DNA of 64,000 nucleotides from a virus. Taxonomy: Duplodnaviria; Heunggongvirae; Uroviricota; Caudoviricetes. Positions 5,291 through 64,000 of this stretch are shown here, one piece after another (within the stretch, counting starts at the first letter, position 1; the number at the start of each line of letters is the position of its first letter). The position numbers were made by a program, and so were the translations under genes. Below the pieces are notes generated by a model that did not search any database, was not told the DNA's origin, and worked only from the letters and a program-made list of their open reading frames with translations. The stretch lies in the IMG/VR virus record IMGVR_UViG_3300013021_000001; one strand, given 5' to 3'.

Positions 5291-5551
5291 ATGGTAGAAT
5301 GTCCAGTATGCCAAAAGGGAGAAATTGTAACTGAAAGAATCACAGAAGAATCAACAGTTTACTCAATGGGTCATGAAAGTCAGGATTCACCAAGGGTTGT
5401 AGAAATGGAGTTTTATGAACACAAAGAAACTGTGGACATCTTAGATGAAGAAGTTTACTGTACAAATTGCAAGACTAGTTTTGAGCATGAAGTATCCAAT
5501 GACACAGAATATTATATAACAGCAAATTTAGAAAAGGTGGTTTTAAAATAA
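5291..5551 (+). CDS. Small zinc-ribbon protein
   Basis: CPVCQ…CTNC Cys pairs. RBS GGGGGAG upstream. Confidence 0.4.
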   Translation: MVECPVCQKGEIVTERITEESTVYSMGHESQDSPRVVEMEFYEHKETVDILDEEVYCTNCKTSFEHEVSNDTEYYITANLEKVVLK

Positions 5552-7167
5552 TGCAGGTGACTTTATTAGAGGAAGGAACATCAAACAATCCAGTAATGAG
5601 TATAGCGATGGCTGCCAGTCGTTGCTATGATTCGGAACCGACAAAAGAGCTAGTCAGAAATGTATTGAATTCAGGACATAATTCTATGGCTGAGTTTGCA
5701 GCTTTTCATTTTAATATCAAAAAGGGAAGTAGAGTGTTTTCTCATCAGCTTGTAAGAAAAAGAGCGGGGGTAAGTTTTTGTTTAAGTGGTGATACAAGAA
5801 TATATTCAGACTATCAAAATGGTAGTGTACATCCTAAGACACTCAAAGAACTCTATAATACTACAATTAATGGATTAAAACACACAAACGTAAGATGTGT
5901 TGATGAAGAAAATAAAATAATTACTAAAAATAAACCAATATCCATAATAAAATCTGGTATAAAAGATGTTTATACTGTAAAAACAAAAGATGGTTATAGT
6001 ATAAAATCTACAAAAGAGCATAAATTTTTAACAGATAACGGCTGGAAAAGATTAAAAAACATAAAAGAAGGAGATATAATTTACACAAATGGAGAGCCAT
6101 TATATAGGGATAAAAACTGGTTAGAAAAAAAATATCACAAAGAAAATTTATCACAAAAAAAGATTGCCACTTTATGTAACTGTTCTCATCACACTATTAG
6201 GAAATGGATTAGAAAATATAATTTACAAAAAGAGTTAGGAAGTTGGTCTTTAGGTGTTGAGCCGCCAAATAAAGGAAAAACAAAAGATAATTATAAACCA
6301 ATGAAAATAAGCTCTGAAAAATTAAAAGGAGAAAATAACCCTAATTATAAAAAAGGTGAAAAATTTGTAGGAGAAAAAAATCATCAATGGAAAGGAAATA
6401 ATATCAAAAATACTGGTGGATATACTCGTGTCCAGAGGCATTTTGATAGAAAATATAAATGTGAAATTTGCGATAAAGAAACTAAATTTACCGAAGTTCA
6501 TCATATAGATAAAAACCCTTCAAATGATTCAGATGATAATTTAATAGAGCTTTGTAGAACATGCCACGCAGTCCAGCATTATGGAGTAAAAGTTAAACAA
6601 ATAAGACTTTCAGAAATTAAAAGCATTGAATATTCAGGAAAAGAAATGACTTATGATTTAGAAATGAAAAATCCACATCATAATTTTATAGCTAATGGTT
6701 TTGTTGTACACAATTCTCAGCGTTCACAGCGCTATGTAAATGAGGATGGTTTTGGTTATGTAACACCAGATACCATCAAAAAAGAGAGTTTTACTCACTA
6801 TGAATATGATGAAATGATTTCTAAGCTCCATGATTTATATAATCAATTTGTTGAAATGGGGATACCAAAAGAAGACGCAAGATTTATACTTCCAAATTCA
6901 ACTGAAACAGAAATAGATGTAATGATTAACCTTCATTCACTTATGGATTTAGCAAAAGAAAGGTTATGTACCAGAGCTCAGTGGGAAATAAGAGATATTG
7001 TCTGGCAGATGAGAAACCAGGTTGTGGCCAAATGGCCTATCTTTGGAGAATATATCAAGCCTAAATGTCAGGTTATAGGTTACTGTCCTGAGCATAAAAG
7101 CTGTGGTTTAACTATTCACAAAAGTGAGGTCAGAGATTTATTTAAACCAGGTAAAAAGGAGGCATAA
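5551..7167 (+). CDS. thyX: Flavin-dependent thymidylate synthase ThyX, interrupted by an HNH-containing intein
   Basis: N-terminal ThyX core SGHNSMAEFAAFHF and RKRAGVSF|…|SQRSQRY (RHR-x7-S-type motif split by insertion). C-terminal DARFILPNSTETEIDVMINLHSLMDLAKERLCTRAQWEIRDIV is ThyX-like. Confidence 0.8.
   Translation: MQVTLLEEGTSNNPVMSIAMAASRCYDSEPTKELVRNVLNSGHNSMAEFAAFHFNIKKGSRVFSHQLVRKRAGVSFCLSGDTRIYSDYQNGSVHPKTLKELYNTTINGLKHTNVRCVDEENKIITKNKPISIIKSGIKDVYTVKTKDGYSIKSTKEHKFLTDNGWKRLKNIKEGDIIYTNGEPLYRDKNWLEKKYHKENLSQKKIATLCNCSHHTIRKWIRKYNLQKELGSWSLGVEPPNKGKTKDNYKPMKISSEKLKGENNPNYKKGEKFVGEKNHQWKGNNIKNTGGYTRVQRHFDRKYKCEICDKETKFTEVHHIDKNPSNDSDDNLIELCRTCHAVQHYGVKVKQIRLSEIKSIEYSGKEMTYDLEMKNPHHNFIANGFVVHNSQRSQRYVNEDGFGYVTPDTIKKESFTHYEYDEMISKLHDLYNQFVEMGIPKEDARFILPNSTETEIDVMINLHSLMDLAKERLCTRAQWEIRDIVWQMRNQVVAKWPIFGEYIKPKCQVIGYCPEHKSCGLTIHKSEVRDLFKPGKKEA
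5779..6714 (+). mobile_element. Intein in ThyX with HNH homing-endonuclease domain (312 aa)
   Basis: Begins CLSGDTRIY and ends VVHN followed by S. Internal HNH motif CEICDKETKFTEVHHIDKNPSNDSDDNLIELCRTCHAVQH. TxxH block STKEHKF. Confidence 0.75.
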
Positions 7168-24731: not shown

Positions 24732-27700
24732 ATGTCGTTTTATGTAATTAAAAGAGACGGAAGAAAAGTAGAATATAAAAATAAAAAAATTAAAGATGCA
24801 GTTTATAAAGCAGCGAAGGCAACAGCAGAAAAAAAAGGTGAAGATTTTTGGAATTTTGTTGCAAATAATATTGTTGAAGAAATAGAAGATAATATAAGTG
24901 GAATGATTAGTTCTGGATTAAACTCTGTTAATGTTGAGACTTTACAGGATATTGTTGAGTATGAATTAATGGAAAACAGACATTATGAAATAGCAAAAAA
25001 CTATATATTATATAGAAAGCAGCATGAAAAGTATAGAGATGCTCAAAAACTATACAATGGAATAAATGATACAGTTAATAATTACCTTGATTTAAGCAAT
25101 TGGAAAGTTAATGAGAACTCCAATATGGGTTATAGTCTTCAGGGTTTAAATAATCATATAGCAAGCGAGGTGACAGGCCATTATTGGTTAAATGAAATTT
25201 ACCCTAAACACATTAAAGAAAAGCATGTAAGTGGAGATTTGCACATTCACGACCTTGCTAATTTAAGTAATTACTGTTGTGGATGGGACCTTCAGGATTT
25301 ATTATTGGAAGGTTTTTCAGGAGTGTCAACCAAGATAGAGTCGGCACCACCAAAACACTTCAGAACTGCTTTAGGACAAATGGTTAATTTTTTATATACT
25401 TTACAGGGAGAGAGTTCTGGAGCTCAAGCTTTTTCAAGTTTCGATACTTATCTTGCACCGTTTGTATCTTATGATGGACTTGATTATGATGAAGTTTATC
25501 AGGCTATGCAGGAATTTATTTTTAATTTAAATGTACCGACACGGGTTGGATTTCAAAGTCCTTTTACAAATTTAACTATGGATTTAGTTTGTCCATCAAA
25601 TATGGCAGAGGACCCAGCTATTATTGGTGGCGAAATGCTTTATGACATGCCGCTTAAAAATTTCCAGAAGGAAATGGACATGATTAACAAGGCTTTTGCT
25701 GAGGTTATGCTGGCGGGAGATTCAAAAGGAAGAGTATTTTCTTTCCCTATTCCTACTTATAACATTACTCCAGATTTTGATTGGGATAACGAAATATTAA
25801 ATCCTGTTTGGGAAATGACAGCCAAGTACGGAATTCCATATTTTGCGAACTTCGTCAATTCCGATATGAAAGCTGAAGACGCTCGCTCAATGTGTCCACT
25901 TGACGGAAAAGAAAAGGTATTAGTTAAAACAGGTGATGACAATGTAAGATACTCCCAAATTAACCACACATATTATGACACTAAAGATAATGATGATATA
26001 TTAGTCTATTCTGATGGTAAATTTATAGAAGGTCGATTCAATAAGTTTGAAAATCAAAATATGATAAATGTAAGATTGGTTAACGGGCATGAGATAAAGA
26101 TGACTGAAGAACATTTAAATTTTGTTATCAAAAATAAAAATAAAGATATTGAAGAAATGTCAGGAAAAGACTTAAAAGAAGGTTATTATCTACCTTATAG
26201 CTTAACAAGTTTTAAAGGCGAAGGAGGAACTTATGACCTTGGCTATTTAATAGGAGCTTTTGCAGGAGACGGAAGCTGTGATAAAAATACAGGAACTGTT
26301 TTTTCTTTAAATAATAATACCAAGCTAACAGTGCTTGAAAATTTAAAAGAAATACTGACTAAACTTTTTGGGGCTAAATTTACCGAAAAAGAAGAAAAAA
26401 ATAATGTAGTTAAACTTTCAACATATAATCCAGCAGTAAAATCAATGATTGAAAGTTTTGTTGATGGGGATAATGCATTAAATAAATACTTCAAAGCAAA
26501 TGTTTTTGAAATGAGCAAACACTTTAGAACAGGATTATTTGATGGCTATTATGAAACTGATGGAGGAAACAAAAATAGAATTTATACATCATCAGAAAAA
26601 ATGGTAGAAAGCTTAAATATGTTAGCTGCTACTCTGGGAACAACAACCAATGTTTATACTGATGACAGAAAAAAAAGTGATGGAAGACTAGGAGATAATC
26701 CAAATTATGCTGTTTTATTTTACAAATTAAATAGAAATAGTTATGGCGACGTTTGGTTTAAAAAAGACTCAAAACTGTGGATGAAAATAGATAAAGTTGA
26801 AAAACTAAAAGAAAAACAAACGGCTTATTGTTTTGAAGTCAAAGATGGAGAACCAATGTTTACGGTTGGCACAACTGGAATCTTGACTCATAACTGCAGG
26901 CTGCGCCTTGATAATCGGCAATTAAGAAAGCGAGGAGGAGGTTTATTCGGCTCATCGCCTATGACAGGCTCTATCGGTGTAGTAACACTTAATATGCCCA
27001 GAATTGGACTTTTAGCAGAAAATACTGATGATTATTTAGAGAGAGTCTATGAATTAATGGATATTGCAAAAGAAAGTTTAGAAATTAAAAGAAGAATTTT
27101 AGAAGAGTTAACAGATGCAGGTCTTTACCCTTATTCTAAGTTTTATCTAAGAAGTATTAAGGAACGTTTTGGAGAGTACTGGAAAAATCACTTTAATACA
27201 ATCGGATTAAATGGAATGAATGAATCTGTTATGAATTTCTTAGGAAAAGATATGACAGAACATGAAGCTATTAAATTTACTAAATGGGTTATGTACAAAA
27301 TGAAAGAAAGAATGGTGGAGTACCAGGAAGAAACAAGTGACCTTTTTAACCTTGAAGCTACTCCAGCTGAAGGAACAAGCTATAGATTGGCCAAATCAGA
27401 CCTTGATAAGTTTGGGAAAGAAGAAGCTGTTTTTGCTAATGATAAAAGGGTTTATACAGAAGATGCTGACCCGTATTACACTAATTCAACTCAGCTACCT
27501 GTAGGGGCTACAGACGACCCTTTTGAAGCTTTAGATTGGCAGGATGAACTTCAGAAAAATTATACAGGAGGAACAGTTTTACATTTATTTCTAGGAGAGA
27601 GAATGCCTGGAATAGAGGCTACCAAAAAGTTTGTTAAAAGAGTTGCTGAAAATTATGAACTTCCTTATTACTCTATTACTCCTACTTTTAGTATTTGTCC

Positions 27701-27773
27701 AATACATGGGTATCTGCCAGGAGAACACGAATTCTGTCCTAAGTGTGATGCTGAAAACGGATATGAGGGTTAG
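24732..27773 (+). CDS. nrdD: Anaerobic ribonucleoside-triphosphate reductase NrdD (class III), with intein; lacks the glycyl-radical C-terminus
   Basis: N-terminal ATP-cone VIKRDGRKVEY. Active-site region SM|C…N|CRLRLD split by a 334-aa insertion. C-terminal zinc site CPIHG…CPKC; the ORF then ends with tandem stops without an RVxG[YF]…NxGK region. Confidence 0.85.
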   Translation: MSFYVIKRDGRKVEYKNKKIKDAVYKAAKATAEKKGEDFWNFVANNIVEEIEDNISGMISSGLNSVNVETLQDIVEYELMENRHYEIAKNYILYRKQHEKYRDAQKLYNGINDTVNNYLDLSNWKVNENSNMGYSLQGLNNHIASEVTGHYWLNEIYPKHIKEKHVSGDLHIHDLANLSNYCCGWDLQDLLLEGFSGVSTKIESAPPKHFRTALGQMVNFLYTLQGESSGAQAFSSFDTYLAPFVSYDGLDYDEVYQAMQEFIFNLNVPTRVGFQSPFTNLTMDLVCPSNMAEDPAIIGGEMLYDMPLKNFQKEMDMINKAFAEVMLAGDSKGRVFSFPIPTYNITPDFDWDNEILNPVWEMTAKYGIPYFANFVNSDMKAEDARSMCPLDGKEKVLVKTGDDNVRYSQINHTYYDTKDNDDILVYSDGKFIEGRFNKFENQNMINVRLVNGHEIKMTEEHLNFVIKNKNKDIEEMSGKDLKEGYYLPYSLTSFKGEGGTYDLGYLIGAFAGDGSCDKNTGTVFSLNNNTKLTVLENLKEILTKLFGAKFTEKEEKNNVVKLSTYNPAVKSMIESFVDGDNALNKYFKANVFEMSKHFRTGLFDGYYETDGGNKNRIYTSSEKMVESLNMLAATLGTTTNVYTDDRKKSDGRLGDNPNYAVLFYKLNRNSYGDVWFKKDSKLWMKIDKVEKLKEKQTAYCFEVKDGEPMFTVGTTGILTHNCRLRLDNRQLRKRGGGLFGSSPMTGSIGVVTLNMPRIGLLAENTDDYLERVYELMDIAKESLEIKRRILEELTDAGLYPYSKFYLRSIKERFGEYWKNHFNTIGLNGMNESVMNFLGKDMTEHEAIKFTKWVMYKMKERMVEYQEETSDLFNLEATPAEGTSYRLAKSDLDKFGKEEAVFANDKRVYTEDADPYYTNSTQLPVGATDDPFEALDWQDELQKNYTGGTVLHLFLGERMPGIEATKKFVKRVAENYELPYYSITPTFSICPIHGYLPGEHEFCPKCDAENGYEG
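25893..26894 (+). mobile_element. Intein in NrdD with LAGLIDADG homing-endonuclease domain (334 aa)
   Basis: Begins CPLDG and ends ILTHN followed by C. Two LAGLIDADG motifs (LGYLIGAFAGDGS and FRTGLFDGYYETDGG). Confidence 0.8.
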
Positions 27774-53871: not shown

Positions 53872-53998
53872 AGCTTATTGCGATGCATCTGATTGCGAAT
53901 ATCATGATTTAGGCGAATGCTGGACAGATGAAGTTTTTTTAGATGAGAAGGGTAAATGCAGAAACTATAAAAAAGAGGATGATGACAACAATGAGTAA
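53864..53998 (+). CDS. Cys-rich 44-aa peptide (DUF1540-like C-x4-C…H…C pattern; not in ORF track)
   Basis: MPRAYCDASDCEYHDLGECWTDEVFLDEKGKCRN. Overlaps its neighbours by only a few nucleotides. Confidence 0.3.
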   Translation: MPRAYCDASDCEYHDLGECWTDEVFLDEKGKCRNYKKEDDDNNE

Positions 53999-54362
53999 GG
54001 AGCTTCTATTTTCTGTAACTAAAAACGACTTAGAAATTGAGACTTTTCGCTCTGGTGGCCCGGGCGGACAAAACCAAAACTCACGAGAAACTGGTGTCAG
54101 AATTAGACATAAAGAGTCAGGGGCTGTGGCCGAGTCAAGAAACCACAGGACTCAGGCTAAGAATAAAAAGGCTGCACTTGAAAGACTTGTAAAGACAGAT
54201 GAATTTAAAAAATGGCATAAGCTTAAAACAAGCTATGCTCTAAAGGGTGTTGATGACTATAAAAAGAAACTAGAAAAAGAAGTTGATGCCTGGATGAGTG
54301 ATAGTAATTTAAAAATAGAAAGTTTTAATAGTGAAAGTAAACAATGGGAGGAATTAAATTAA
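53991..54362 (+). CDS. GGQ-domain peptidyl-tRNA hydrolase, ArfB (YaeJ)-like ribosome rescue factor
   Basis: FRSGGPGGQNQNSRETGVRIRH parallels E. coli ArfB [21 protein letters not shown] (GGQ catalytic motif). About 123 aa with a basic C-terminal tail. ATG 53991 preferred over 53943. Confidence 0.55.
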   Translation: MSKELLFSVTKNDLEIETFRSGGPGGQNQNSRETGVRIRHKESGAVAESRNHRTQAKNKKAALERLVKTDEFKKWHKLKTSYALKGVDDYKKKLEKEVDAWMSDSNLKIESFNSESKQWEELN

Positions 54363-54661
54363 TGATAGAGATTACAACTGTAGAGGAATTCGAGGACTTT
54401 ATCAATCAGGACAAACATGTTGTGGTTGATTTTTACGCTAAATGGTGTGGAAAGTGTAAGCAACTTAAAGGAAGGTTAATGGCCCAGTATGCTGATAAGT
54501 TTGATATTTACACAGTTGATGTTGACTCTTTTGAGGCTTTAGCTGAAGAGTATAACGTAAAAGGACTTCCGAAACTTATATTGTTTAAAAATGGAGAGAT
54601 TGTTGAAGAACAGGATAAATCAGCTATGGTATTTCTAAAAAAGATAAAAACATTACTATAA
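54362..54661 (+). CDS. Thioredoxin-like protein (CGKC active site)
   Basis: VVDFYAKWCGKCKQL is a WCxxC thioredoxin-fold motif. 99 aa. ATG 54362 after GGGAGGAATTAAATTA. Confidence 0.65.
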   Translation: MIEITTVEEFEDFINQDKHVVVDFYAKWCGKCKQLKGRLMAQYADKFDIYTVDVDSFEALAEEYNVKGLPKLILFKNGEIVEEQDKSAMVFLKKIKTLL

Positions 54662-54667
54662 AAAAAG

Positions 54668-54693
54668 AAGCCGTCCTTTTAAGGGCGGCTTTT
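54668..54693. terminator. Bidirectional terminator hairpin between convergent blocks
   Basis: AAGCCGTCCTTTTAAGGGCGGCTT stem-loop followed by TTTTG on the plus strand and preceded by an A-run. Marks the strand switch. Confidence 0.6.
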
Positions 54694-56382: not shown

Positions 56383-57492
56383 TTATAACTTATCACCCCC
56401 ATTTAAGATAATGTAGGACCTTGGCTCAATTTTAAACCCTTGAACCATTTCTGCGTTGCCTCCGTTGTTGATTATTAGTTCGTAACATCCTCTTTTAGCG
56501 TGGTAAATGTTACATGTTGATTTGATAATCTCAAGGCCCTCTTTTTCTGTTTCCTTTTTAACTCCGATAAGAGTATCTATTTGGTCTTTCAGTTCATATC
56601 TAAAGTAATCATCCCAGAAAACAACAACTGGATTGTCCTGGAAGAATATATATGCATATGCAAGCTCTTTTTTCTCTGAGATTGCATCCTTATTTGAACT
56701 TCTCTCTCTTCTTTCAATATCGTGATTAGCAAGAAAATTAACCCTTTTGTTTTTGTTTATTTCTTCAAGTTTTCTGATATCAAAATCAGGATTCATACAC
56801 ATATCTCTTAATTTGTAAAATAAGGGAAAATTTAATAAATTTAAGTCTGGATTATAAGAGTGAACCTCATTTAGTTTTGAGTCTGCCCCTTCCCAGTATT
56901 CACCCATAATAAATGTGTCAAGCTTAAAATATTGTGTGAATACTTTTGTAAAATCCCATCGCATATCTTTTATGTTATCTAGTCGAAAACTGTCGAAACC
57001 TATCTCATCTTTGAGCCATTTTGCCCAGTTTATTAAACCATCTGCCATATATTTATCATCAGAGTAATAACAGATTGTTTCTCCAAAGGAGTTGCGGCTG
57101 TCACAGTTTCCACATTCGTGACAGAAGTGTTTGTAATTTTTTTTAAATAATTCATCTTCAAATTTTGTGTATGTTTTTTTATCAAAATAAGGATTATACT
57201 CAAGCTCTCCTCCAAGCATATGGCCTAATACTAAATCAGCCATGACATTAACATCTTCTTTATGTAGTTTATTTATTAGTTTTTTGAGTGTTTCTTTAGT
57301 ACCAAACCTAGAATCTAAGTTGTAATGTTCTTTAATATCATAGCCCATTGAGTTAGCACCATTCATGCCCTTTGAAACAGGTGGAAGCCAGACTGTATCA
57401 AAGCCCTTGTTTGCTATCTCTTCAGCCAGATACTCTAAATGCTCCCACCAATTCTCAAGACAATTCCAATAAAACCCCTGTAAGATTACCAA
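56383..57492 (-). CDS. GH13 alpha-amylase-family glycoside hydrolase
   Basis: TTG start. ILQGFYWN…GFDTVWLPPVSKG…GYD…Y.L.SRFGTKETL. Region I DLVLGHM, region II SFRLDNIKDM (catalytic Asp), region III MGEYWEG (Glu), region IV LANHD. No domain C (369 aa). Confidence 0.65.
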   Translation of the reverse strand: MVILQGFYWNCLENWWEHLEYLAEEIANKGFDTVWLPPVSKGMNGANSMGYDIKEHYNLDSRFGTKETLKKLINKLHKEDVNVMADLVLGHMLGGELEYNPYFDKKTYTKFEDELFKKNYKHFCHECGNCDSRNSFGETICYYSDDKYMADGLINWAKWLKDEIGFDSFRLDNIKDMRWDFTKVFTQYFKLDTFIMGEYWEGADSKLNEVHSYNPDLNLLNFPLFYKLRDMCMNPDFDIRKLEEINKNKRVNFLANHDIERRERSSNKDAISEKKELAYAYIFFQDNPVVVFWDDYFRYELKDQIDTLIGVKKETEKEGLEIIKSTCNIYHAKRGCYELIINNGGNAEMVQGFKIEPRSYIILNGGDKL

Positions 57493-57506
57493 AGCCTCTC
57501 CACTCC

Positions 57507-58202
57507 TTAAAAATAGTAATTGTAATGTTTTAATGCTCCGTTTTCTATAACTACTGCTAGTGCTTCAAGTTCTTTTTTTATCTCGAATTTACTTTTTATA
57601 TTTTCTATTTTTTCATCTAATATTGTTTCGAATTCTTTTAAGTCTTCATCATTTAAAGGCTCTGATACATCTTCGTACTTTACTCTGTTTACTGTAAAAT
57701 AAAGTCTTAAATTATCTTCTATTTTGTTTGTCTCTAAATTATAATCAAGACCTATAAGGTAAGCTTTATCCAAAATAGAACTGCTTAAAACTAAATCATC
57801 AGTATCCGTCATACTATTAAGTTTGTTGAGCTGTTCATCATTTAAGCCCTTTTTGTACAAATAAAATGTTACGCTTTTTTTGTCGTAAGAGATAATTGAA
57901 TAAATCGAAGATAAGAAACTTAAGCTTGTAATATCAAAGAGCTTATTATTAATCTCCTGGTTGATAACATCACCAATCTTAAGCTCATCTAACACTTTTA
58001 AGTACTTTTCGGTGTCGGCAACTTTATACTCATTAAATGTATAGTAAACTTCCTTTTTATCTATATTAACTATGTCGGGTAGAGCTTCTTCGATTTCAAA
58101 GCCAAGCTCTTTTATTTTACTTTTTAGTTTTTCCTTGTTTTTGAACCTGTAGTCTTCATTTTTTATTAAGCCGTCACTAATCTTAGTCATTACTTTTTCC
58201 AC
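57507..58202 (-). CDS. Hypothetical protein
   Basis: GTG start after AAAGGAGGCAAATATAA. 231 aa. Confidence 0.4.
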   Translation of the reverse strand: MEKVMTKISDGLIKNEDYRFKNKEKLKSKIKELGFEIEEALPDIVNIDKKEVYYTFNEYKVADTEKYLKVLDELKIGDVINQEINNKLFDITSLSFLSSIYSIISYDKKSVTFYLYKKGLNDEQLNKLNSMTDTDDLVLSSSILDKAYLIGLDYNLETNKIEDNLRLYFTVNRVKYEDVSEPLNDEDLKEFETILDEKIENIKSKFEIKKELEALAVVIENGALKHYNYYF

Positions 58203-58218
58203 TTATATTTGCCTCCTT

Positions 58219-58842
58219 TTACAAGTTTAAAATAAAATTCTTAAACTCTGTTTTGTTAAGGTTGTTATCTTCTTTAGTCCACATATTTTTATCTAGAGTA
58301 AGGCCTCTTTTAATAATGCCGAAACCCTCAGTGTTATTTTTAGCTAAAAAGGTGAGTCCGTATTTTTCTGCATATCTTTCACCAAAGTACAAGGAAAGTT
58401 CACACCCTTCTGAGAATTTAAGTTCAGATGAAGGTAATAATATATGAACTTTACTTTCTTTTGCTTTTTTAATTAATTCCTTTTTAAATTTAAAACCTTG
58501 ACATAGCTCTATGTATGGAATTTCAAACTGTAAAACAGAATTTAAACTTTTAATGTCATATACTTTAGGCATCCATTTGATACCAACTTTTTTTGAATAT
58601 TTATCTATTTCTTTCAGTTCTTCTTTTTTAAGCTGTAATCTTCTCTCGCAATCTATATTGAGCATCTGGCCCCAGGGAGTATCAATCAGTTCAAACCAAT
58701 CATCTCTTGTGATTGATAGCTCTGGAACTTTAACATCAAAGGATATAATATCTGCTCCTGCCATAAAGGCTTCCTCTATTAGTTTTTTGGCGAATTCTAT
58801 ATTTCCATTATGGTTTGTTTTTGCGTCTGCTATTATTTTCAT
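58219..58842 (-). CDS. NeuB (sialic-acid synthase)-like TIM-barrel protein, degenerate
   Basis: IIADAKTNHNGNIEFAKKLIEEAFMAGADIISFDVK parallels NeuB IAEIG.NHNG.LE.AK.MI..A...GADAVKFQ. Later blocks are also collinear, but the metal-binding His-Thr position reads Asn-Thr (NTEG). 207 aa versus about 340. Confidence 0.45.
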   Translation of the reverse strand: MKIIADAKTNHNGNIEFAKKLIEEAFMAGADIISFDVKVPELSITRDDWFELIDTPWGQMLNIDCERRLQLKKEELKEIDKYSKKVGIKWMPKVYDIKSLNSVLQFEIPYIELCQGFKFKKELIKKAKESKVHILLPSSELKFSEGCELSLYFGERYAEKYGLTFLAKNNTEGFGIIKRGLTLDKNMWTKEDNNLNKTEFKNFILNL

Positions 58843-58886: not shown

Positions 58887-59480
58887 TTAGCTGTTGTATC
58901 TTCTTACTGCATTAACTACATCATTCATCATTAGCTTTAAGTAGTCATCGTTATTTAGTTTCTTTTCTTCTTCTATATTTGTAATAAAACCCATCTCTAT
59001 CAAGACTGCTGGCATATGAGTGTTTTTTAATACGTATAAGTTCTTTCTTTCTTTAAGGCCTCTATCACGAGGATTAAGGTCCCTTATTACTTCTTCTTGT
59101 ATTAAGCCTGCAAGCTTTTTACCTCCTGTACTGGTAGGATAATGAAGTGTCTCAAAGCCTTCAGCACTCTCTGCATCTGCTGCATTAGCATGGATTGAAA
59201 TAAACAAATCTGCCTTTTCATTGTTTGCTATATTGCACCTTTCGCTAAGCTTTACATATTCGTCTTTATCCCTAATCATTACTACTTTGTGCTCTGTTTT
59301 TAGTTCGAATAAACTCTTAAGCATCTTTGCTGCCTTTAAGTTCTTTTCGCTTTCTTCTGTGTAGATTTCATCTTCATAAATATCATCATCATACTTTTTG
59401 TCTTTAGGGTCGACAGCCCCTCCGTCCTTTCCTCCATGTCCTGCGCTAATTGCAATTATTAAGTTTTCTTTATATGGCAT
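58887..59480 (-). CDS. N-acetylmuramoyl-L-alanine amidase (Amidase_3) - endolysin candidate
   Basis: AISAGHGGKDGGAVD and FISIHANA are zinc-binding Amidase_3 motifs. RBS GGGAGGTG. Confidence 0.7.
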   Translation of the reverse strand: MPYKENLIIAISAGHGGKDGGAVDPKDKKYDDDIYEDEIYTEESEKNLKAAKMLKSLFELKTEHKVVMIRDKDEYVKLSERCNIANNEKADLFISIHANAADAESAEGFETLHYPTSTGGKKLAGLIQEEVIRDLNPRDRGLKERKNLYVLKNTHMPAVLIEMGFITNIEEEKKLNNDDYLKLMMNDVVNAVRRYNS

Positions 59481-59538: not shown

Positions 59539-59763
59539 TTAAAGTTTATTTTTTTTATTCTCATAAGTAAATTTAATATCGAATGGTTCTCCTTTTAGCT
59601 TACTTATTTCTGCTGCAAGTACATGAACCGCCTCTATTAATTCTTCTTTTGTAATGTAGTCTAGGTCGCTTGCTAGTTCAGCGTTTTCATCTGTTAATTT
59701 TTCGTAACCTTTTGAAATAACAATAGTGTTTTCGTTTTCGTTCATTATGTTAAATTTAGCCAT
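59539..59763 (-). CDS. Hypothetical 74-aa acidic protein
   Basis: RBS TAGGAGGTGGTCAA ATG. Sits between the radical-SAM trio and the amidase. Confidence 0.4.
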   Translation of the reverse strand: MAKFNIMNENENTIVISKGYEKLTDENAELASDLDYITKEELIEAVHVLAAEISKLKGEPFDIKFTYENKKNKL

Positions 59764-59774
59764 TTGACCACCTC

Positions 59775-60647
59775 CTAAAAAACTAATCCATTAACACTAG
59801 ATGCATGAGATTTTCCATCTGTGTTTCTGTGGCAGTTATTACATGCTTGAGGCATAGAGTTTTTATTACTGAATTTGGCCAGTATTTTTTTAGTTCTACT
59901 AGATTTATATATATCATCTATATCGCTTTTATAAAGGTTTCCAAGTATTAATTCTTTGTGAGAATCTGCATCACTTCTTGTGTGTGCACAAGGCATAACA
60001 GAGCCATTGTAGTCTATATATATCGAATCTAATGGTTCTGTACAGATTTCCGTTCTCTCTTCTCTGTTTTTTCTCCATTTTAATTTTGTTCTATTATGAA
60101 TTACTTCTTCTTGACTTAAAAGCCCTCCTCTATTTTCTAAAAGTGCATGTTTTGGCCAATCTACTCTGTATAGAGCTGTAGTTCCATATTTTGATTTTGA
60201 CAATATTTGCTTATTTTTTTTGTTGTATTTAATATTTTTAAAACCAGCCTCAGATATTTTTTTCTTCACCTTTTCTGCACCAAGGCAATCATAATCCATA
60301 ATGTTTAACCTTGTAGCATAAAAATCTTTTAAGTCAAGTTTTTCAACAAAATCTCCGTTAGTTTTTACAACTATATTTATATAAGGGAAAAATTTTTTTA
60401 TTTGCTTTATTCTTTTATTTAAAAGCCCTATATTTATTAGAGGCTCATGATATCTTGCAATGTAAACAGTTGCATTTCTATATAAGTTAAATTTGTTTAT
60501 TTTTAAATCATTTAACAACTTCAAAAAAACATCTTCATCAAGCTCTTTGTAGGAGGTTCTGTCTATATCTTTGTTTGGGCACCACTCGCATTTTCTGTTG
60601 CACTGGCTGTGAAATTCTAATTCTAGATTTTTTATTTTTGAAAACAC
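59775..60647 (-). CDS. Radical-SAM/SPASM-like enzyme, paralog 1
   Basis: GTG start. HSQCNRKCEWCPNK CxxxCxxC cluster. C-terminal Cys-rich auxiliary-cluster region IDYNGSVMPCAHTR…LGNL…CNNCH. Confidence 0.55.
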   Translation of the reverse strand: MFSKIKNLELEFHSQCNRKCEWCPNKDIDRTSYKELDEDVFLKLLNDLKINKFNLYRNATVYIARYHEPLINIGLLNKRIKQIKKFFPYINIVVKTNGDFVEKLDLKDFYATRLNIMDYDCLGAEKVKKKISEAGFKNIKYNKKNKQILSKSKYGTTALYRVDWPKHALLENRGGLLSQEEVIHNRTKLKWRKNREERTEICTEPLDSIYIDYNGSVMPCAHTRSDADSHKELILGNLYKSDIDDIYKSSRTKKILAKFSNKNSMPQACNNCHRNTDGKSHASSVNGLVF

Positions 60648-60648
60648 T

Positions 60649-61479
60649 TTATTTGTTACCCCCTTCAGGCTTATGACAATAAGTGCAAACTCCTGGCATA
60701 GTTTCTATTTTCTCGAATTTTTTCATTATTTTTTTAGCTTTTTCTGATTTGTATATCTCAACTATACTTTTTTCATGAAGATTTCCTAATATAAATTCTT
60801 GATGTTCTTTTGCATCATGCCTCATGTGGCAGCAAGGCATTACACTTCCATCATAATCAACAATAATTGTATTAAATGGCTCTCCACAAAGTCTATTTCT
60901 TTTTTTGTCTTTGTTTATCCATTCCATATCATTTATTGAGTTTGGGTCTAATAAACCAGCTCTATCCTCCAGTTCTACATTTCTCTTCCAGTTAGATTTA
61001 TATATAATAATTCTTGAGTTTTCATCCCTTGCGCGGATATATGAGTTTTTAGCTCTTATAAAATCAAAATTAAAACCTATATCATTTATTTTTATTAAAC
61101 ATCTTGCACTTCCAACACCGTCATAGTCCATTATGTTTAACCTATCAAATGGTATATCTTTTATGTTTTCTTTTGTTATAAAATCACCATTAGATTTGAT
61201 AAGTAGATGAACATCTGGAAGTATTTTTTTTATTTGCTTTGACCTTTTTCTTGCAAGCTCAGGATTAATAAATGCTTCATGAAATCTTGAAATAGATATT
61301 GTAGAAGAGTCTTTTTCTCCGAAGCCGTTTTCCTTTAAATCACTTAATAATTTTAGAAAAATATCTTCATCAAACTCTTTATAAAAAGTTCTATCTATAT
61401 ATTTATTTGGGCACCACTCGCATTTTCTATTGCACTGGCTGTGGAAAGCTATTTCTACACCTGAAATATGAGAAAACAT
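60649..61479 (-). CDS. Radical-SAM/SPASM-like enzyme, paralog 2
   Basis: Start set at the internal ATG (complement 61477-61479, MFSHISGVEIAFH) behind GGTGATATA. This matches the paralog N-termini and avoids a 92-nt overlap. SQCNRKCEWCPNK. C-terminal VMPCCHMRHD…LGNL…CTYCH. Confidence 0.55.
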   Translation of the reverse strand: MFSHISGVEIAFHSQCNRKCEWCPNKYIDRTFYKEFDEDIFLKLLSDLKENGFGEKDSSTISISRFHEAFINPELARKRSKQIKKILPDVHLLIKSNGDFITKENIKDIPFDRLNIMDYDGVGSARCLIKINDIGFNFDFIRAKNSYIRARDENSRIIIYKSNWKRNVELEDRAGLLDPNSINDMEWINKDKKRNRLCGEPFNTIIVDYDGSVMPCCHMRHDAKEHQEFILGNLHEKSIVEIYKSEKAKKIMKKFEKIETMPGVCTYCHKPEGGNK

Positions 61480-61483
61480 TATA

Positions 61484-62389
61484 TCACCAGCATTCCTTAA
61501 TATTTTTAATTTCTTCATTGTCCCTATATTTATGACATCTCTTGCATATTTTGGGGTAATCATCAATTTTCCCAAGCATTATGTTTCTAAATTTTTTAGA
61601 TTTTTTTGAGTAATATATATTTGATATACTTTTTTCGTTTATATTTCCGAGTATGAAATCCTCATGCTTTTTAGCATCACTTCTCATATGGCAACAAGGC
61701 ATAACGTTACCATTATAGTCAATAGAAATATAATTAAAAATTTCTATGCACTTTTTATTTCTTTGTCTGCTTTTCCTGTTGCTGTGCCACTCTATATTTT
61801 TGTACTCATGATTATGAGGGTCTTTAATTTTTATTTTGTTTTCAATATCTAAAAGTTCAGCTATATTTTCTATATTGTTATTCAGAGGCCAATTATAAAA
61901 ATACCTTAACTCAAAAGAGTTATCATCTATAGCTGATATATATTTATTTTCAGTGTCAAATCTTCTAACTTTTAGGCCTAGATTGTTTATTAGCTCAAAA
62001 CCATATGCTGTACCTCTGCAATCATAGTCCATAACATTTATTCTATCTAAATTAAGATTGCTAATATTCTTTTTGTTTAAAAAGTCGCCATTAGTATTTA
62101 CGTATAAATATACGTTATCAAGGATATTTTTTAATTGGTTAGACCTTTTTTTAAGTAATTTAATATCTGCCATTGGCTCAGAAAATCTATTAAATGAAAT
62201 CTTGTTGAATATTTTATTTTTATTTTTATTAAAATTATTTTTTTTAAGGTCTTGGATTAATTTTAAAAAAGTATCCTCCGGCATAGGAAGATTCTTATCT
62301 CTTTGAATATCCTTGTTTGGACACCAATGACATTCTCTATTACAATACCCATTAATCTCTATCTCTATTCTTTTTATATGAGAAAGCAT
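61484..62389 (-). CDS. Radical-SAM/SPASM-like enzyme, paralog 3
   Basis: ATG after GGGGGTTAAA. GYCNRECHWCPNK. C-terminal VMPCCHMRSD…LGNI…CKRCH. Confidence 0.55.
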   Translation of the reverse strand: MLSHIKRIEIEINGYCNRECHWCPNKDIQRDKNLPMPEDTFLKLIQDLKKNNFNKNKNKIFNKISFNRFSEPMADIKLLKKRSNQLKNILDNVYLYVNTNGDFLNKKNISNLNLDRINVMDYDCRGTAYGFELINNLGLKVRRFDTENKYISAIDDNSFELRYFYNWPLNNNIENIAELLDIENKIKIKDPHNHEYKNIEWHSNRKSRQRNKKCIEIFNYISIDYNGNVMPCCHMRSDAKKHEDFILGNINEKSISNIYYSKKSKKFRNIMLGKIDDYPKICKRCHKYRDNEEIKNIKECW

Positions 62390-62390
62390 T

Positions 62391-63299
62391 TTAACCCCCT
62401 ATGAATTTATTCCATTTATCTTCACTATTTATTATTTTGCTTGGTTTTATAATGTCTTCATTATTTTCTTTATAAAGCCAAAATATATCTCTCAACCAGT
62501 GTGACATACTTTGATTTGCATACAAAAGGTCGCTATAATTATATATTTTCATTTTAATTAGTTCTTTCTTTGGGTCAAAAAATGAAGCTCCATCTCTCTT
62601 AAAACATTTATCTTTAACAAATTCTTTTCCGTCTGGTGTATTATATTCGTCTCCATAAACTACAGAAAAAGGTAATACTTGTTCTATTGGTTTTTTTAAT
62701 TCTATAAATTCATTGCCATATTTTAATCCATAAAAATCTCTAGTTATTATATTTAAACATAACATCTTTTTATCTTCTGGCCATAAATTATTTTTATAAA
62801 GGCTTCTTATTGATAACATTCGGTGGCTACCTTCATAGACATAAAACAATCTTTGATACCTTCTGGCTGATATAACTAGTGGCCAGTAAGTACCGTTTTT
62901 TAACACGTCCAAGCCTAACTTTTCCTTATTGTTCCTGGATTCTACAAGGTAAGCATCTTTAAATTGATTTGCTTGATTTCTCATTGCCCACTGCTCTTCT
63001 TTCTTTTTCTTTTCTGTTATATAAATAAATTTAGGGTGAATCCATAAAAACCTAAAAAGCTCAGCTTCTAAAATATTTTTCAAATTATAATTAATATATG
63101 TATTGTACATATATTTTATATATTCTTTATCAAATATACATGAGTTTTCCTGGTTTAAATACGCCGTGTGTAAATGCCTGTAAAGTGCAGGCAGAACATG
63201 CCTATCATTTCTTTCATCATAATCAAGCTTTAGTCTATCTATTCTTTCATCATAATCAAGCTTTAGTCTATCTATATTATATCTGTTCAATAGTCCCAC
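62391..63299 (-). CDS. ParB/Srx-fold domain protein, paralog B (N-terminal 11-aa tandem repeat)
   Basis: GLDVLKNGTYWPLV…YVYEGSHRMLSI has a GxHR ParB/sulfiredoxin-type motif. About 200 aa are shared with the upstream paralog. IDRLKLDYDER ×2 at the N-terminus. Confidence 0.4.
   Translation of the reverse strand: MGLLNRYNIDRLKLDYDERIDRLKLDYDERNDRHVLPALYRHLHTAYLNQENSCIFDKEYIKYMYNTYINYNLKNILEAELFRFLWIHPKFIYITEKKKKEEQWAMRNQANQFKDAYLVESRNNKEKLGLDVLKNGTYWPLVISARRYQRLFYVYEGSHRMLSIRSLYKNNLWPEDKKMLCLNIITRDFYGLKYGNEFIELKKPIEQVLPFSVVYGDEYNTPDGKEFVKDKCFKRDGASFFDPKKELIKMKIYNYSDLLYANQSMSHWLRDIFWLYKENNEDIIKPSKIINSEDKWNKFIGG
63208..63273 (-). repeat. 33-bp tandem duplication inside ParB-like paralog B
   Basis: ATT(T)CTTTCATCATAATCAAGCTTTAGTCTATCT occurs twice consecutively. 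In frame, encoding IDRLKLDYDER twice. Confidence 0.6.
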
Positions 63300-63304
63300 C
63301 CTTG

Positions 63305-63982
63305 CTAATTATCTATATTTTCATTAAAAATTTCTCCTCCAACAAATCTATTCCATAAACTCTCATCATTAACAACTCTGCTTGACTTTATTGGAGTGCC
63401 TGTATCATTTTGATTTAACCATATAATATCTCTCATCCAGTGAGGCAATGCTTGAGTTAAAAAAAGTAAGCTGCTATAGTCATAAACTTCTTTTTTTAAT
63501 AGTATTTTTTTATCACTATGAAATTCAATATTATCAGATTTAAATAAGTTCTTTTCTATAAAATCTCTATCCTCTTTTTTATTATTTTCATCTCCGTAAA
63601 TTGTCACAAACGGAGCTAACTGTTTTACTGGTCTCTCTAATTTTATTACTTTTTTTCTAGCTTTGATTCTTTGGTAGTCGCCATTAACCCTCATACAAAG
63701 CACCTTTTTATCTTCTGGCCAATCGCCAGTTTCTACCATCTTTTTTATAGCAAAAGCTCTATGGTTACCCTCGTATACATATAAATCTCCATCTATTACT
63801 TCAACAACTATTGGCCAGTAAGTTCCGTTCTCTAAGATATCTAATCCTAAATTTACTTTATTTTCTTCTGTTTGTCTCAAATACATATCTGTATTATCTT
63901 GTATAACCCAGTTTTCTTCTATATCAAAATCTCTATTTTTTATTTTGCTTGGATGTTCCCAAGAAAATTCAAATACGCTCAA
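63305..63982 (-). CDS. ParB/Srx-fold domain protein, paralog A
   Basis: TTG start. GLDILENGTYWPIV…YVYEGNHRAFAI. Collinear with paralog B (WPEDKK.LC, PF..YGDE.N, YS.LL..Q..HW.RDI.WL, WN.F.GG). Confidence 0.4.
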   Translation of the reverse strand: MSVFEFSWEHPSKIKNRDFDIEENWVIQDNTDMYLRQTEENKVNLGLDILENGTYWPIVVEVIDGDLYVYEGNHRAFAIKKMVETGDWPEDKKVLCMRVNGDYQRIKARKKVIKLERPVKQLAPFVTIYGDENNKKEDRDFIEKNLFKSDNIEFHSDKKILLKKEVYDYSSLLFLTQALPHWMRDIIWLNQNDTGTPIKSSRVVNDESLWNRFVGGEIFNENIDN

Positions 63983-64000
63983 ATTAAGTAAATTCCTTAA

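What the first reader, a model, noticed from the sequence alone, without database searches (positions are those of the whole stretch)
59775..63982. Compact leftward cluster: two paralogous ParB/Srx-fold proteins followed by three tandem radical-SAM/SPASM paralogs, adjacent to the lysis genes
Five genes with 1-5 nt spacers form two paralog families. The ParB-like pair shares GTYWP…YVYEG[NS]HR… collinearity. The radical-SAM trio shares CNR[KE]C[EH]WCPNK plus a C-terminal VMPC(C)H…LGN[LI]…CxxCH SPASM/twitch-like auxiliary-cluster region. Tandem SPASM radical-SAM enzymes are typical of RiPP maturation (thuricin, subtilosin, PQQ). Here there is no obvious Cys-rich precursor; only a 74-aa acidic ORF follows. 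The partner proteins are ParB/Srx-fold, a fold seen in DNA modification and nuclease systems. A phage-encoded cassette of this composition next to holin, endolysin, amylase and NeuB-like genes does not match a described phage function. Candidates include DNA or virion-protein hypermodification, a RiPP-like toxin or lysis effector, or an anti-defence system.
Basis: partly seen in the sequence, partly recalled or inferred. Interest (0 to 1): 0.85.

Follow-up and report, generated by a model that had tools for sequence, protein, structure and literature searches.

The report
Phage radical-SAM sugar-tailoring gene cluster
Five tightly packed phage genes encode two nucleotide-binding (ParB/sulfiredoxin-fold) proteins and three relatives of the sugar-oxidising radical enzyme BtrN; in related uncultured phages this pair sits beside genes that make an activated sialic-acid-like sugar, so it is most likely an undescribed sugar-modifying module, not a peptide-antibiotic pathway.

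Summary
Five co-oriented minus-strand genes with 1-5 nt spacers form two paralog families (A/B 40% identity; C/D/E 37-46%). Two corrections apply: gene A runs off the window end (288 aa in near-identical contigs), and gene D starts at 61479.

The RiPP reading is not supported. The three radical-SAM proteins are full-length homologues of BtrN, the butirosin 2-deoxy-scyllo-inosamine dehydrogenase (profile E=1e-39; AF2 model TM 0.78). They keep the CX3CX2C motif and all four twitch-cluster cysteines. A and B have a ParB/Srx core with an E-G-x-H-R motif, like sulfiredoxin and the serine kinases SbnI and SerK. They belong to a rare new family of about 160 clusters.

The two families occur fused in both orders. 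In 30-31 of 32 related phage loci they sit next to a cytidylyltransferase and a NeuB synthase, often with a phosphomannose-isomerase cupin and a HAD phosphatase. Together these amount to a CMP-Kdn-type pathway.

This phage is atypical. It lacks the cytidylyltransferase and the cupin. Its NeuB-like gene has lost its catalytic residues, yet it is under purifying selection. The cluster lies with tail-fibre genes in a hypervariable module that ends at a sharp mosaic boundary. Substrate and target remain unknown.

The parts
63305..64000 (-). Gene A: ParB/Srx-fold protein, paralog 1. It is cut by the window end; the full gene is 288 aa and starts at about 64171.
62391..63299 (-). Gene B: ParB/Srx-fold protein, paralog 2 (302 aa).
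   Evidence: 40% identical to A, E=1e-76; the family profile hits sulfiredoxin (E=0.004) and ParB (E=0.008) on the GTYWP...EGxHR motif.
63202..63275 (.). 33-bp tandem repeat (2.2 copies) in the 5' part of gene B. It duplicates an 11-aa segment.
   Evidence: The segment is single-copy in L001.
61484..62389 (-). Gene C: BtrN-like radical SAM/twitch enzyme (301 aa).
   Evidence: SPASM, E=4.5e-14; the family profile matches BtrN at E=1e-39. AF2 model pLDDT 88; Foldseek top hit BtrN 4m7t, E=5e-14, TM 0.78.
60649..61479 (-). Gene D: BtrN-like radical SAM/twitch enzyme (276 aa; start corrected to ATG 61479).
   Evidence: start and 4-nt spacer; as a single sequence its only PDB hit is BtrN, E=2.6e-11.
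59775..60647 (-). Gene E: BtrN-like radical SAM/twitch enzyme (290 aa; PCAH instead of PCCH).
   Evidence: CX3CX2C and all four auxiliary-cluster Cys equivalents are present.
59539..59763 (-). 74-aa acidic ORF F. It is not a precursor peptide. The mosaic boundary with the sister phage falls inside it, at about 59721.
   Evidence: no Cys; no homologue in the 165 other related loci; 86% identical in L168; DNA identity jumps to 96% from 59721 leftwards.
58887..59480 (-). Endolysin (N-acetylmuramoyl-L-alanine amidase). Context only, in the conserved module.
   Evidence: Amidase_3, E=4.5e-48.
58219..58842 (-). Degenerate NeuB-like protein (207 aa). It is a relic or repurposed copy of the cassette's nonulosonic-acid synthase.
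   Evidence: homologous to the cassette NeuB in 30 loci (HMM E=2e-33); catalytic Glu, Lys and Gln and both metal His are replaced or deleted; no PDB hit; dN/dS 0.22.
56383..58202 (-). 231-aa protein of unknown function plus a GH13 alpha-amylase-like protein. Context only, in the conserved module.
   Evidence: the 231-aa protein is unrelated to the cytidylyltransferase or the ParB-like family; 95-99% identical in the sister phage.

Best explanation
The cluster is the tailoring half of a conserved cassette of uncultivated phages, and that cassette handles a nonulosonic (sialic-acid-like, probably Kdn-type) sugar.

Genes C, D and E are BtrN-type radical-SAM enzymes. Each uses a [4Fe-4S]/SAM site to abstract a hydrogen atom from a sugar carbinol carbon, and a twitch-domain auxiliary cluster to take the electron. 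This oxidises (or otherwise radical-rearranges) a secondary alcohol of the sugar.

Genes A and B are ParB/Srx-fold nucleotide-binding partners with an E-G-x-H-R motif, as in sulfiredoxin and the serine kinases SerK and SbnI. They work physically together with the radical enzymes. Two roles are possible: phosphorylating or otherwise activating the substrate with an NTP, or holding the nucleotide (CMP) part of the activated sugar.

The extra paralogs (2+3) are lineage-specific duplications. They probably widen or alter the set of products.

The product is most likely used on a glycan that matters for host recognition, either on the virion tail fibres or on the host envelope.

Status of each step:
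- Shown: the folds, the cluster ligands, BtrN homology, partnership through fusions and adjacency, synteny with CMP-sugar genes, and membership of a variable tail-fibre module.
- Inferred: the substrate, the chemistry after H-abstraction, the role of the ParB-like protein, and the final acceptor.
For: (1) BtrN homology.
- The family profile matches BtrN over its full length at E=1e-39. The next PDB hits are at about E=0.004.
- Gene D alone hits only BtrN.
- The AF2 model of gene C has BtrN as its top structural hit (E=5e-14, TM 0.78), against anSME at E=2e-6.
- CX3CX2C and the four BtrN auxiliary-cluster Cys equivalents are conserved in C, D and E.

(2) ParB/Srx core.
- Profile against PDB: sulfiredoxin E=0.004, ParB E=0.008, SbnI E=0.41.
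- BFVD returns only ParB/Srx hits.

(3) Partnership of the two families.
- Natural fusions exist in both orders: P0175 (rSAM then ParB-like) and an L077 ORF (ParB-like then rSAM).
- In 23 of 32 loci the two are adjacent or fused.

(4) Sugar context.
- Of 32 related loci with a ParB-like gene, 31 have a PseF/KdsB-like cytidylyltransferase, 30 have NeuB and 21 have a phosphomannose-isomerase cupin. HAD phosphatases also occur, some fused to the cytidylyltransferase or the cupin.
- Neighbours of the wider rSAM family include epimerase/dehydratase, DegT aminotransferase and glycosyltransferases.

(5) Variable module.
- The sister phage L168 is 93-99% identical in the flanking lysis-side genes but only 38-48% in the ParB-like and rSAM genes and 32-41% in the upstream tail genes. 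The DNA boundary is sharp, at about 59721.
Against: - This phage lineage itself lacks the cytidylyltransferase and the isomerase cupin. This holds for the 64-kb window and for the 10 kb upstream in the sister phage.
- Its NeuB-like protein has lost its catalytic residues. The link to nonulosonic acid is therefore by homology with other phages, not by this locus.
- All three rSAM copies fall in an accessory clade. The copy that normally sits next to the cytidylyltransferase is absent. Support for that split is weak (0.57).
- No glycosyltransferase is recognisable in any cassette, so the fate of the sugar is unknown.
- The ParB/Srx match covers only about 100 of 288 residues at modest Z. Whether the protein is a kinase or a binding subunit is undetermined.
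- Bacterial homologues of the rSAM sit in heterogeneous contexts with only moderate glycan enrichment.
- There are no biochemical data.
Confidence: 0.55

Rival explanations
1. RiPP maturation. The three SPASM-type radical SAM enzymes would cross-link or epimerise a ribosomal peptide, with the ParB-like proteins as accessory factors.
For: The Pfam SPASM domain passes threshold. There are weak partial NCBIfam matches to peptide maturases such as DynA, PapB and GrrM. A small ORF follows the cluster.
Against: - BtrN is the overwhelmingly best relative (E=1e-39, against 0.004-0.04 for YydG and anSME).
- Only one auxiliary cluster's worth of Cys is present.
- NCBIfam scores are 10-50 bits against cutoffs of 170-850.
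- The 74-aa ORF has no Cys and has no homologue in the 165 other related loci.
- The conserved neighbours are sugar-nucleotide enzymes.
Confidence: 0.03
2. DNA hypermodification. The ParB/Srx-fold proteins, a fold common in DNA-modification systems such as DndB and DpdB, would act on phage DNA and attach or process a sugar on a modified base, with the rSAM enzymes tailoring it.
For: - The ParB/Srx fold.
- In some loci the cassette abuts replication genes such as DNA ligase, polymerase and thymidylate synthase.
- No protein glycosyltransferase is found.
Against: - No HTH or other DNA-binding domain is detected in the model or by Pfam.
- The only thymidylate-synthase-type gene in the window is a ThyX with an intein, not a ThyA-type pyrimidine hydroxymethylase.
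- In most loci, including this one, the cassette lies between tail-fibre and lysis genes.
- The motif is the His-Arg type of the small-molecule kinases.
Confidence: 0.1
3. Direct post-translational modification of a virion protein. The rSAM enzymes would act like anSME, a radical-SAM dehydrogenase that oxidises Ser or Cys in proteins, on tail-fibre residues. The ParB-like proteins would phosphorylate or recruit the target.
For: - anSME is the second-best structural relative.
- The cluster co-varies with the tail-fibre genes in a mosaic module.
- This lineage has lost the sugar-synthesis genes yet keeps and expands the pair.
Against: - Similarity to anSME is far weaker than to BtrN (E=2e-6 and TM 0.4-0.5, against E=5e-14 and TM 0.78).
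- Only one auxiliary cluster is present, whereas anSME has two.
- In 30-31 of 32 other loci the pair is embedded in a CMP-sugar pathway.
Confidence: 0.1
4. Production of a nucleotide-derived small molecule, by analogy with viperin. The pair would convert CTP or a CMP-sugar into an antimetabolite or signal used against the host or against host defences. No glycan would be built.
For: - No glycosyltransferase is found in any cassette.
- ParB-family proteins bind CTP (established knowledge).
- Viperins appear among weak rSAM hits.
- Minimal cassettes consist only of the fusion protein, a cytidylyltransferase-HAD protein and NeuB (L077).
Against: - The viperin match is confined to the N-terminal radical-SAM core (about 130 residues, E about 1e-5).
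- There is no PADLOC hit.
- The late-operon position next to tail fibres and co-variation with them fit a surface-glycan role better.
Confidence: 0.1

Closest known systems
BtrN (2-deoxy-scyllo-inosamine dehydrogenase, butirosin biosynthesis, Bacillus circulans; PDB 4M7S/4M7T)
   Same: - Small radical-SAM enzyme of 250-300 aa.
- Near-identical CNRxCxWCPN cluster motif.
- Full-length collinearity.
- A twitch domain with four Cys for one auxiliary [4Fe-4S] cluster.
- A carbohydrate-type genomic context.

   Different: - Only about 20-30% identity.
- No aminoglycoside (btr) genes nearby.
- Encoded by phages.
- Always paired, and sometimes fused, with a ParB/Srx-fold protein that BtrN does not need.
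- Substrate unknown.
CMP-Kdn / CMP-sialic acid biosynthesis: NeuB-type synthase, HAD phosphatase and CMP-sugar synthetase, as in Bacteroides thetaiotaomicron Kdn or the bacterial NeuB/NeuA and PseI/PseF pathways (own knowledge)
   Same: Related phage loci carry NeuB (NCBIfam NeuB_NnaB, E=1e-67 to 1e-72), a PseF/KdsB-like cytidylyltransferase, a HAD 'capsule biosynthesis phosphatase' and a phosphomannose-isomerase cupin, in one operon with the ParB-like and rSAM pair.
   Different: - The phage NeuB lacks the C-terminal SAF domain and scores below the equivalog cutoffs.
- No UDP-GlcNAc-derived steps and no sialyltransferase are present.
- In this window the pathway is reduced to a catalytically degenerate NeuB-like protein.
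ParB/Srx-fold small-molecule kinases and sulfiredoxin (SerK, SbnI, Srx)
   Different: - The N- and C-terminal parts have no structural match.
- No serine or cysteine metabolism context.
- Partner of a radical-SAM enzyme.
ParB/KorB CTP-dependent DNA clamps
   Same: The same N-terminal fold. A nucleotide (CTP) binding precedent that would suit a CMP-sugar pathway.
   Different: - The GERRxR arginine patch is replaced by E-G-x-H-R.
- No HTH or dimerisation domains are detected.
- Up to five paralogs per locus.
- An enzyme-operon context.
Virus-encoded glycan pathways that decorate virions (mycobacteriophage virion glycosylation; giant-virus sugar pathways). Own knowledge, not tested here.
   Same: Sugar-nucleotide genes are placed in or next to the structural gene module of a virus.
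   Different: Those systems use recognisable glycosyltransferases and NDP-hexose chemistry. None is known to use radical-SAM enzymes or ParB/Srx partners.

Membership tests
Radical SAM superfamily | CX3CX2C motif for the SAM-binding [4Fe-4S] cluster near the N-terminus. | tested here: met
   CNRECHWC (C) and CNRKCEWC (D, E). C16, C20 and C23 are conserved across 27 family members: C20 and C23 are invariant, C16 is in at least 90%. The Pfam Radical_SAM match is only sub-threshold (17-24 bits against a cutoff of 29.5).
BtrN-like twitch radical-SAM dehydrogenases | Full-length homology to BtrN. | tested here: met
   Profile against PDB: E=1e-39 over residues 6-273 of the profile and 6-242 of BtrN. 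Foldseek: E=5e-14, TM 0.78.
BtrN-like twitch radical-SAM dehydrogenases | Four Cys ligands of a single auxiliary [4Fe-4S] cluster (BtrN C169, C188, C232, C235). | tested here: met
   They align to C214, C232, C282 and C285. These are invariant in the family and present in C, D and E.
BtrN-like twitch radical-SAM dehydrogenases | Oxidation of a secondary alcohol of an aminocyclitol or sugar; aminoglycoside cluster context. | not testable with these tools
   No btr-type neighbours were found. The neighbours elsewhere are CMP-sugar genes. Activity needs biochemistry.
SPASM-domain peptide maturases (RiPP) | Seven-Cys SPASM motif binding two auxiliary clusters. | tested here: not met
   Only CX12GX4C(C) plus CxxC is present, that is 4-5 Cys. 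The Pfam SPASM model is matched nonetheless.
SPASM-domain peptide maturases (RiPP) | Adjacent conserved precursor peptide, usually Cys-rich or motif-bearing, and/or an RRE domain. | tested here: not met
   The 74-aa ORF has no Cys. It has no homologue in the 165 other related loci, only in the sister phage. No RRE was detected by Pfam.
ParB/Srx fold | Core alpha/beta fold with a P-(I/V) strand followed by the G-x-x-R nucleotide-binding motif. | tested here: met
   [not shown]
ParB partition/CTPase clamps | GERRxR CTP-binding box, HTH DNA-binding domain, parS/ParA context. | tested here: not met
   The motif is E-G-x-H-R. No HTH was found by Pfam or in the model. The matches cover only the N-domain. 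There is no ParA nearby.
Nonulosonic-acid (NeuB) synthases (the window's NeuB-like gene) | TIM-barrel catalytic residues, including two metal-binding His (SxH and ExH motifs). | tested here: not met
   E to D, K to S, Q to D and K to E substitutions. Both His motifs are deleted or replaced. About 70 residues are missing. There is no PDB hit, whereas the cassette NeuB of L007 hits NeuB and PseI at E=1e-30.
Known anti-phage defence systems | Match to a PADLOC model. | tested here: not met
   Only one marginal hit (E=0.039) for gene A and none for the others.

The most novel reading that the evidence does not exclude
The ParB/Srx-fold protein and the BtrN-like radical-SAM enzyme form a previously unknown two-component (sometimes fused) enzyme. 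The CTP/ATP-binding fold is reused to hold or activate a CMP-linked nonulosonic acid, while radical chemistry remodels it or even couples it to its acceptor. This would replace a conventional glycosyltransferase. Phages would swap and duplicate the pair together with their tail-fibre genes to diversify a host-range-relevant glycan.
Probability: 0.25. Interest if true: 0.85.

Novelty: new variant of a known kind. Interest (0 to 1): 0.62.

Why it matters
- It would add radical-SAM chemistry and a new ParB/Srx-fold enzyme family to the small repertoire of virus-encoded glycan pathways.
- It would be a phage route to sialic-acid-like sugars in anaerobes, where NAD- or O2-independent oxidation makes sense.
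- The family is absent from all cultured phage genomes searched, so it is invisible to current annotation.
- Its position in the swappable tail-fibre module suggests a role in host range or immune and antigenic variation.
- For enzymology, the natural fusions give a ready-made construct for testing what a ParB/Srx domain does for a radical enzyme.

Tried and rejected
- **GenBank phages.** Megablast and tblastn of the cluster, gene C and gene A found nothing. The cassette NeuB has only 3 hits.
- **Defence and family databases.** PADLOC gave nothing. PHROGs, Pfam and NCBIfam gave nothing for gene B, the 231-aa protein, the c33 and c44 cassette families or the 74-aa ORF.
- **Is the 231-aa protein a hidden cytidylyltransferase or ParB-like protein?** hhalign probability 0.1; rejected.
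- **Cytidylyltransferase or cupin elsewhere in the 64-kb window.** HMM search found none. Two weak HAD-like hits in the replication module are judged unrelated.
- **Source phage in IMG/VR.** An exact 46-mer search found nothing, so the remaining ~45 kb of the genome could not be checked.
- **AFDB50 fold search.** Unavailable.
- **Literature.** Searches on phage with NeuB and radical SAM, twitch with nucleotide sugar, BtrN homologues, ParB with sulfiredoxin and radical SAM, and phage Kdn returned nothing on this cassette.
- **Promoter and terminator scan of the cluster.** Fewer sites than in shuffles; uninformative.
- **Bacterial neighbourhoods of distant rSAM homologues.** Heterogeneous, with only moderate glycan enrichment. 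They do not identify a known pathway.
- **Bootstrap tree.** The first attempt timed out and was redone with a faster method.

Full report
**The observation**

The region holds five co-oriented minus-strand ORFs:
- A: 63305 to the window end.
- B: 62391-63299.
- C: 61484-62389.
- D: 60649-61479.
- E: 59775-60647.

They are followed by a 74-aa acidic ORF (F, 59539-59763), an Amidase_3 endolysin, a NeuB-like gene, a 231-aa protein of unknown function, a GH13 alpha-amylase-like gene and small membrane or coiled-coil proteins.

Paralogy is unambiguous. A/B are 40% identical (E=1e-76). C/D, C/E and D/E are 44, 37 and 46% identical (E=6e-60 to 1e-91). With D started at ATG 61479, the spacers are 5, 1, 4 and 1 nt, and Shine-Dalgarno-like sequences lie in the upstream gene ends.

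Two corrections are needed. First, gene A is not complete. The window is 99.98% identical to an ENA contig (L008) and 99.5% identical to a JGI contig (L001). In both, A is 288 aa, and its start falls about 170 nt beyond the window. Second, the listed 308-aa form of D overlaps C and is not the likely product.

**The radical-SAM trio**

Pfam finds SPASM above threshold in C, D and E. NCBIfam gives only weak partial matches to many maturase models.

An alignment of C, D and E with 24 homologues shows three conserved elements:
- C16, C20 and C23 (CNRxCxWCPN).
- C214-x12-G-x4-C232(C233).
- C282-x2-C285.

That is the first half of the SPASM signature plus one CxxC, which gives ligands for one auxiliary cluster.

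A profile of this alignment matches BtrN (4M7S/4M7T) over its whole length at E=1e-39. Everything else in the PDB is at E of 0.004 or worse. The four BtrN auxiliary-cluster cysteines align with the four conserved ones. Gene D alone finds only BtrN (E=2.6e-11). An AF2 model of gene C (pLDDT 88) has BtrN as its top structural neighbour (E=5e-14, TM 0.78), well ahead of anSME (E=2e-6).

BtrN is a radical-SAM dehydrogenase of an aminocyclitol, not a peptide maturase (established knowledge). The RiPP analogy therefore fails on its own refutation criterion of clear homology to a characterised enzyme class. The Cys ligands themselves are all present.

**The ParB-like pair**

Single-sequence searches give almost nothing (phrog_1033 at E=2.4e-5 for A only).

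A 12-member family profile hits sulfiredoxin (E=0.004), H. pylori ParB (E=0.008) and SbnI (E=0.41). All three hits fall on the segment GTYWPi...yvyEGnHR.

In every case only about 100 of 288 residues align. The N- and C-terminal parts are unmatched.

The invariant motif is G-x-H-R preceded by Glu, as in Srx, SerK and SbnI. It is not the GERRxR box of CTP-binding ParB.

An exhaustive HMM search of 1.84 billion cluster representatives finds only 162 members, 65 of them at E of 1e-10 or better. This is a rare, unnamed family.

**The two families work together**

- One representative (P0175, 494 aa) is a BtrN-like enzyme fused to a C-terminal ParB-like domain. An ORF in locus L077 (546 aa) has the opposite order.
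- In 23 of 32 related loci the two genes are adjacent or fused. In the rest they are one to three genes apart.

**Genomic context elsewhere**

The rSAM family has 448 relatives in IMG/VR and 262 in the genome collection. I analysed 165 loci.

| Loci | Number | Cytidylyltransferase | NeuB | PMI cupin | HAD hits |
|---|---|---|---|---|---|
| With a ParB-like gene | 32 | 31 | 30 | 21 | 21 |
| Without a ParB-like gene | 133 | 6 | 4 | 6 | 5 |

- The cytidylyltransferase is PseF/KdsB-like.
- The cupin is of the phosphomannose-isomerase type (PF01050, E=4e-17).
- The cassette NeuB matches NeuB_NnaB at E=1e-67 to 1e-72 and solved NeuB and PseI structures at E=1e-30.
- The cytidylyltransferase is sometimes fused to a HAD 'capsule biosynthesis phosphatase', and the HAD to the cupin.

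Read together, this is a self-contained route (inference from the family assignments): fructose-6-P to mannose-6-P, then with PEP to a nonulosonate-9-P, then to the free acid, then to the CMP-sugar. That is a Kdn-type pathway.

The cassette usually lies between tail-fibre-like genes and the lysis genes. Some extended cassettes add a family with a PP-loop-like AGKDS motif. No glycosyltransferase is recognisable in any ParB-like-positive cassette.

**What is unusual in this window**

- The window has no cytidylyltransferase or cupin (HMM search of all ORFs).
- Its NeuB-like protein has lost the catalytic Glu, Lys and Gln, both metal-binding His motifs and about 70 residues, and has no PDB hit.
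- That gene is nevertheless under purifying selection (dN/dS 0.22 against the sister phage, similar to the endolysin). It is a retained pseudo-enzyme or repurposed protein, not a decaying gene.
- In an NJ tree, C, D and E group with one rSAM of the sister phage (bootstrap 0.80), so they are lineage-specific duplicates.
- They fall in a weakly supported (0.57) clade of 'first-position' accessory copies. The copy that normally abuts the cytidylyltransferase is missing.

**Mosaic structure**

A sister phage (L168-L170) has one ParB-like and two rSAM genes in the same place.

| Region compared with the sister phage | Amino-acid identity |
|---|---|
| Genes from F leftwards | 86-100% |
| A and B | 42-48% |
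| C, D and E | 38-48% |
| Two upstream tail genes | 32-41% |

At the DNA level, identity is 96% up to window position about 59721, which is inside F. Beyond that it collapses to scattered patches of 64-75%. The cluster therefore belongs, with the tail-fibre genes, to an exchangeable hypervariable module.

**Interpretation**

The best-supported reading is that A-E are pairs of a nucleotide-binding ParB/Srx partner and a BtrN-type radical dehydrogenase that tailor a sugar. In most phages that sugar is a phage-made CMP-nonulosonic acid. In this lineage it is presumably a host-supplied precursor. The likely destination is a glycan relevant to host recognition.

The substrate, the chemistry after hydrogen abstraction, the role of the ParB-like protein (kinase or CMP-binding subunit) and the acceptor are all inferences.

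Rivals:
- DNA hypermodification. No hydroxymethylase is present; the thymidylate-synthase gene is an intein-containing ThyX.
- Direct anSME-like protein modification.
- A viperin-like nucleotide product.
- RiPP maturation.

The first three cannot be excluded. RiPP maturation is very unlikely.

**Novelty**

Nothing comparable was found in 50,697 GenBank phage records, in PADLOC or in the literature searched.

The enzymes are new members of known folds. The ParB/Srx-plus-radical-SAM partnership and its attachment to a phage CMP-sugar pathway appear undescribed.

Noticed in passing
window 63202-63275: A 33-bp tandem repeat (2.2 copies, 95% match) inside the 5' part of gene B duplicates the 11-aa segment DRLKLDYDER(I/N). 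The near-identical JGI contig L001 has a single copy, so the repeat number is polymorphic.
   Followed up: partly
window 58219-58842: The NeuB-like protein has lost essentially all catalytic and metal-binding residues and about 70 residues. It is nevertheless 93% identical in a sister phage, with dN/dS 0.22. It is a conserved pseudo-enzyme of unknown role, next to a conserved 231-aa protein of unknown function and a GH13-like protein.
   Followed up: partly
window 5551-7167: The flavin-dependent thymidylate synthase (ThyX) gene is interrupted by an intein with an HNH endonuclease. DnaB-intein matches fall at residues 106-172 and the ThyX match at 408-486.
   Followed up: partly
window 24732-27773: The anaerobic ribonucleotide reductase NrdD ORF is unusually long (1013 aa), and its NrdD-like matches fall into separate stretches. 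It may also carry an insertion or intein.
   Followed up: no
window 54666-54693: A strong 12-bp-stem hairpin with a T-run sits exactly between the convergent plus-strand replication block and the minus-strand late/lysis block. It is probably a bidirectional terminator.
   Followed up: no
window ~53991-54661 (L008 10566-11236): An RF-1-domain (ArfB-like peptidyl-tRNA hydrolase) gene and a thioredoxin gene close the plus-strand block. This is an unusual pair for a phage.
   Followed up: no
L004/L007 7957-10014; L019 13666-14364; L089 11774-12628: Extended cassettes carry one or two copies of an unnamed 233-285-aa family with a PP-loop-like 'AGKDS' motif and a conserved CxxCH. The copies are interleaved with ParB-like paralogs. 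It may be an ATP-dependent sugar amidotransferase-like tailoring enzyme. No database hit was found.
   Followed up: partly
L168 1-978: The sister phage carries a TnpB/Cas12f-like gene about 9 kb upstream of the cluster, near the tail genes.
   Followed up: no
P0168 (510 aa): One family member is a tandem duplication of the ParB-like domain within a single polypeptide. This parallels the tandem gene paralogs seen in this window.
   Followed up: no
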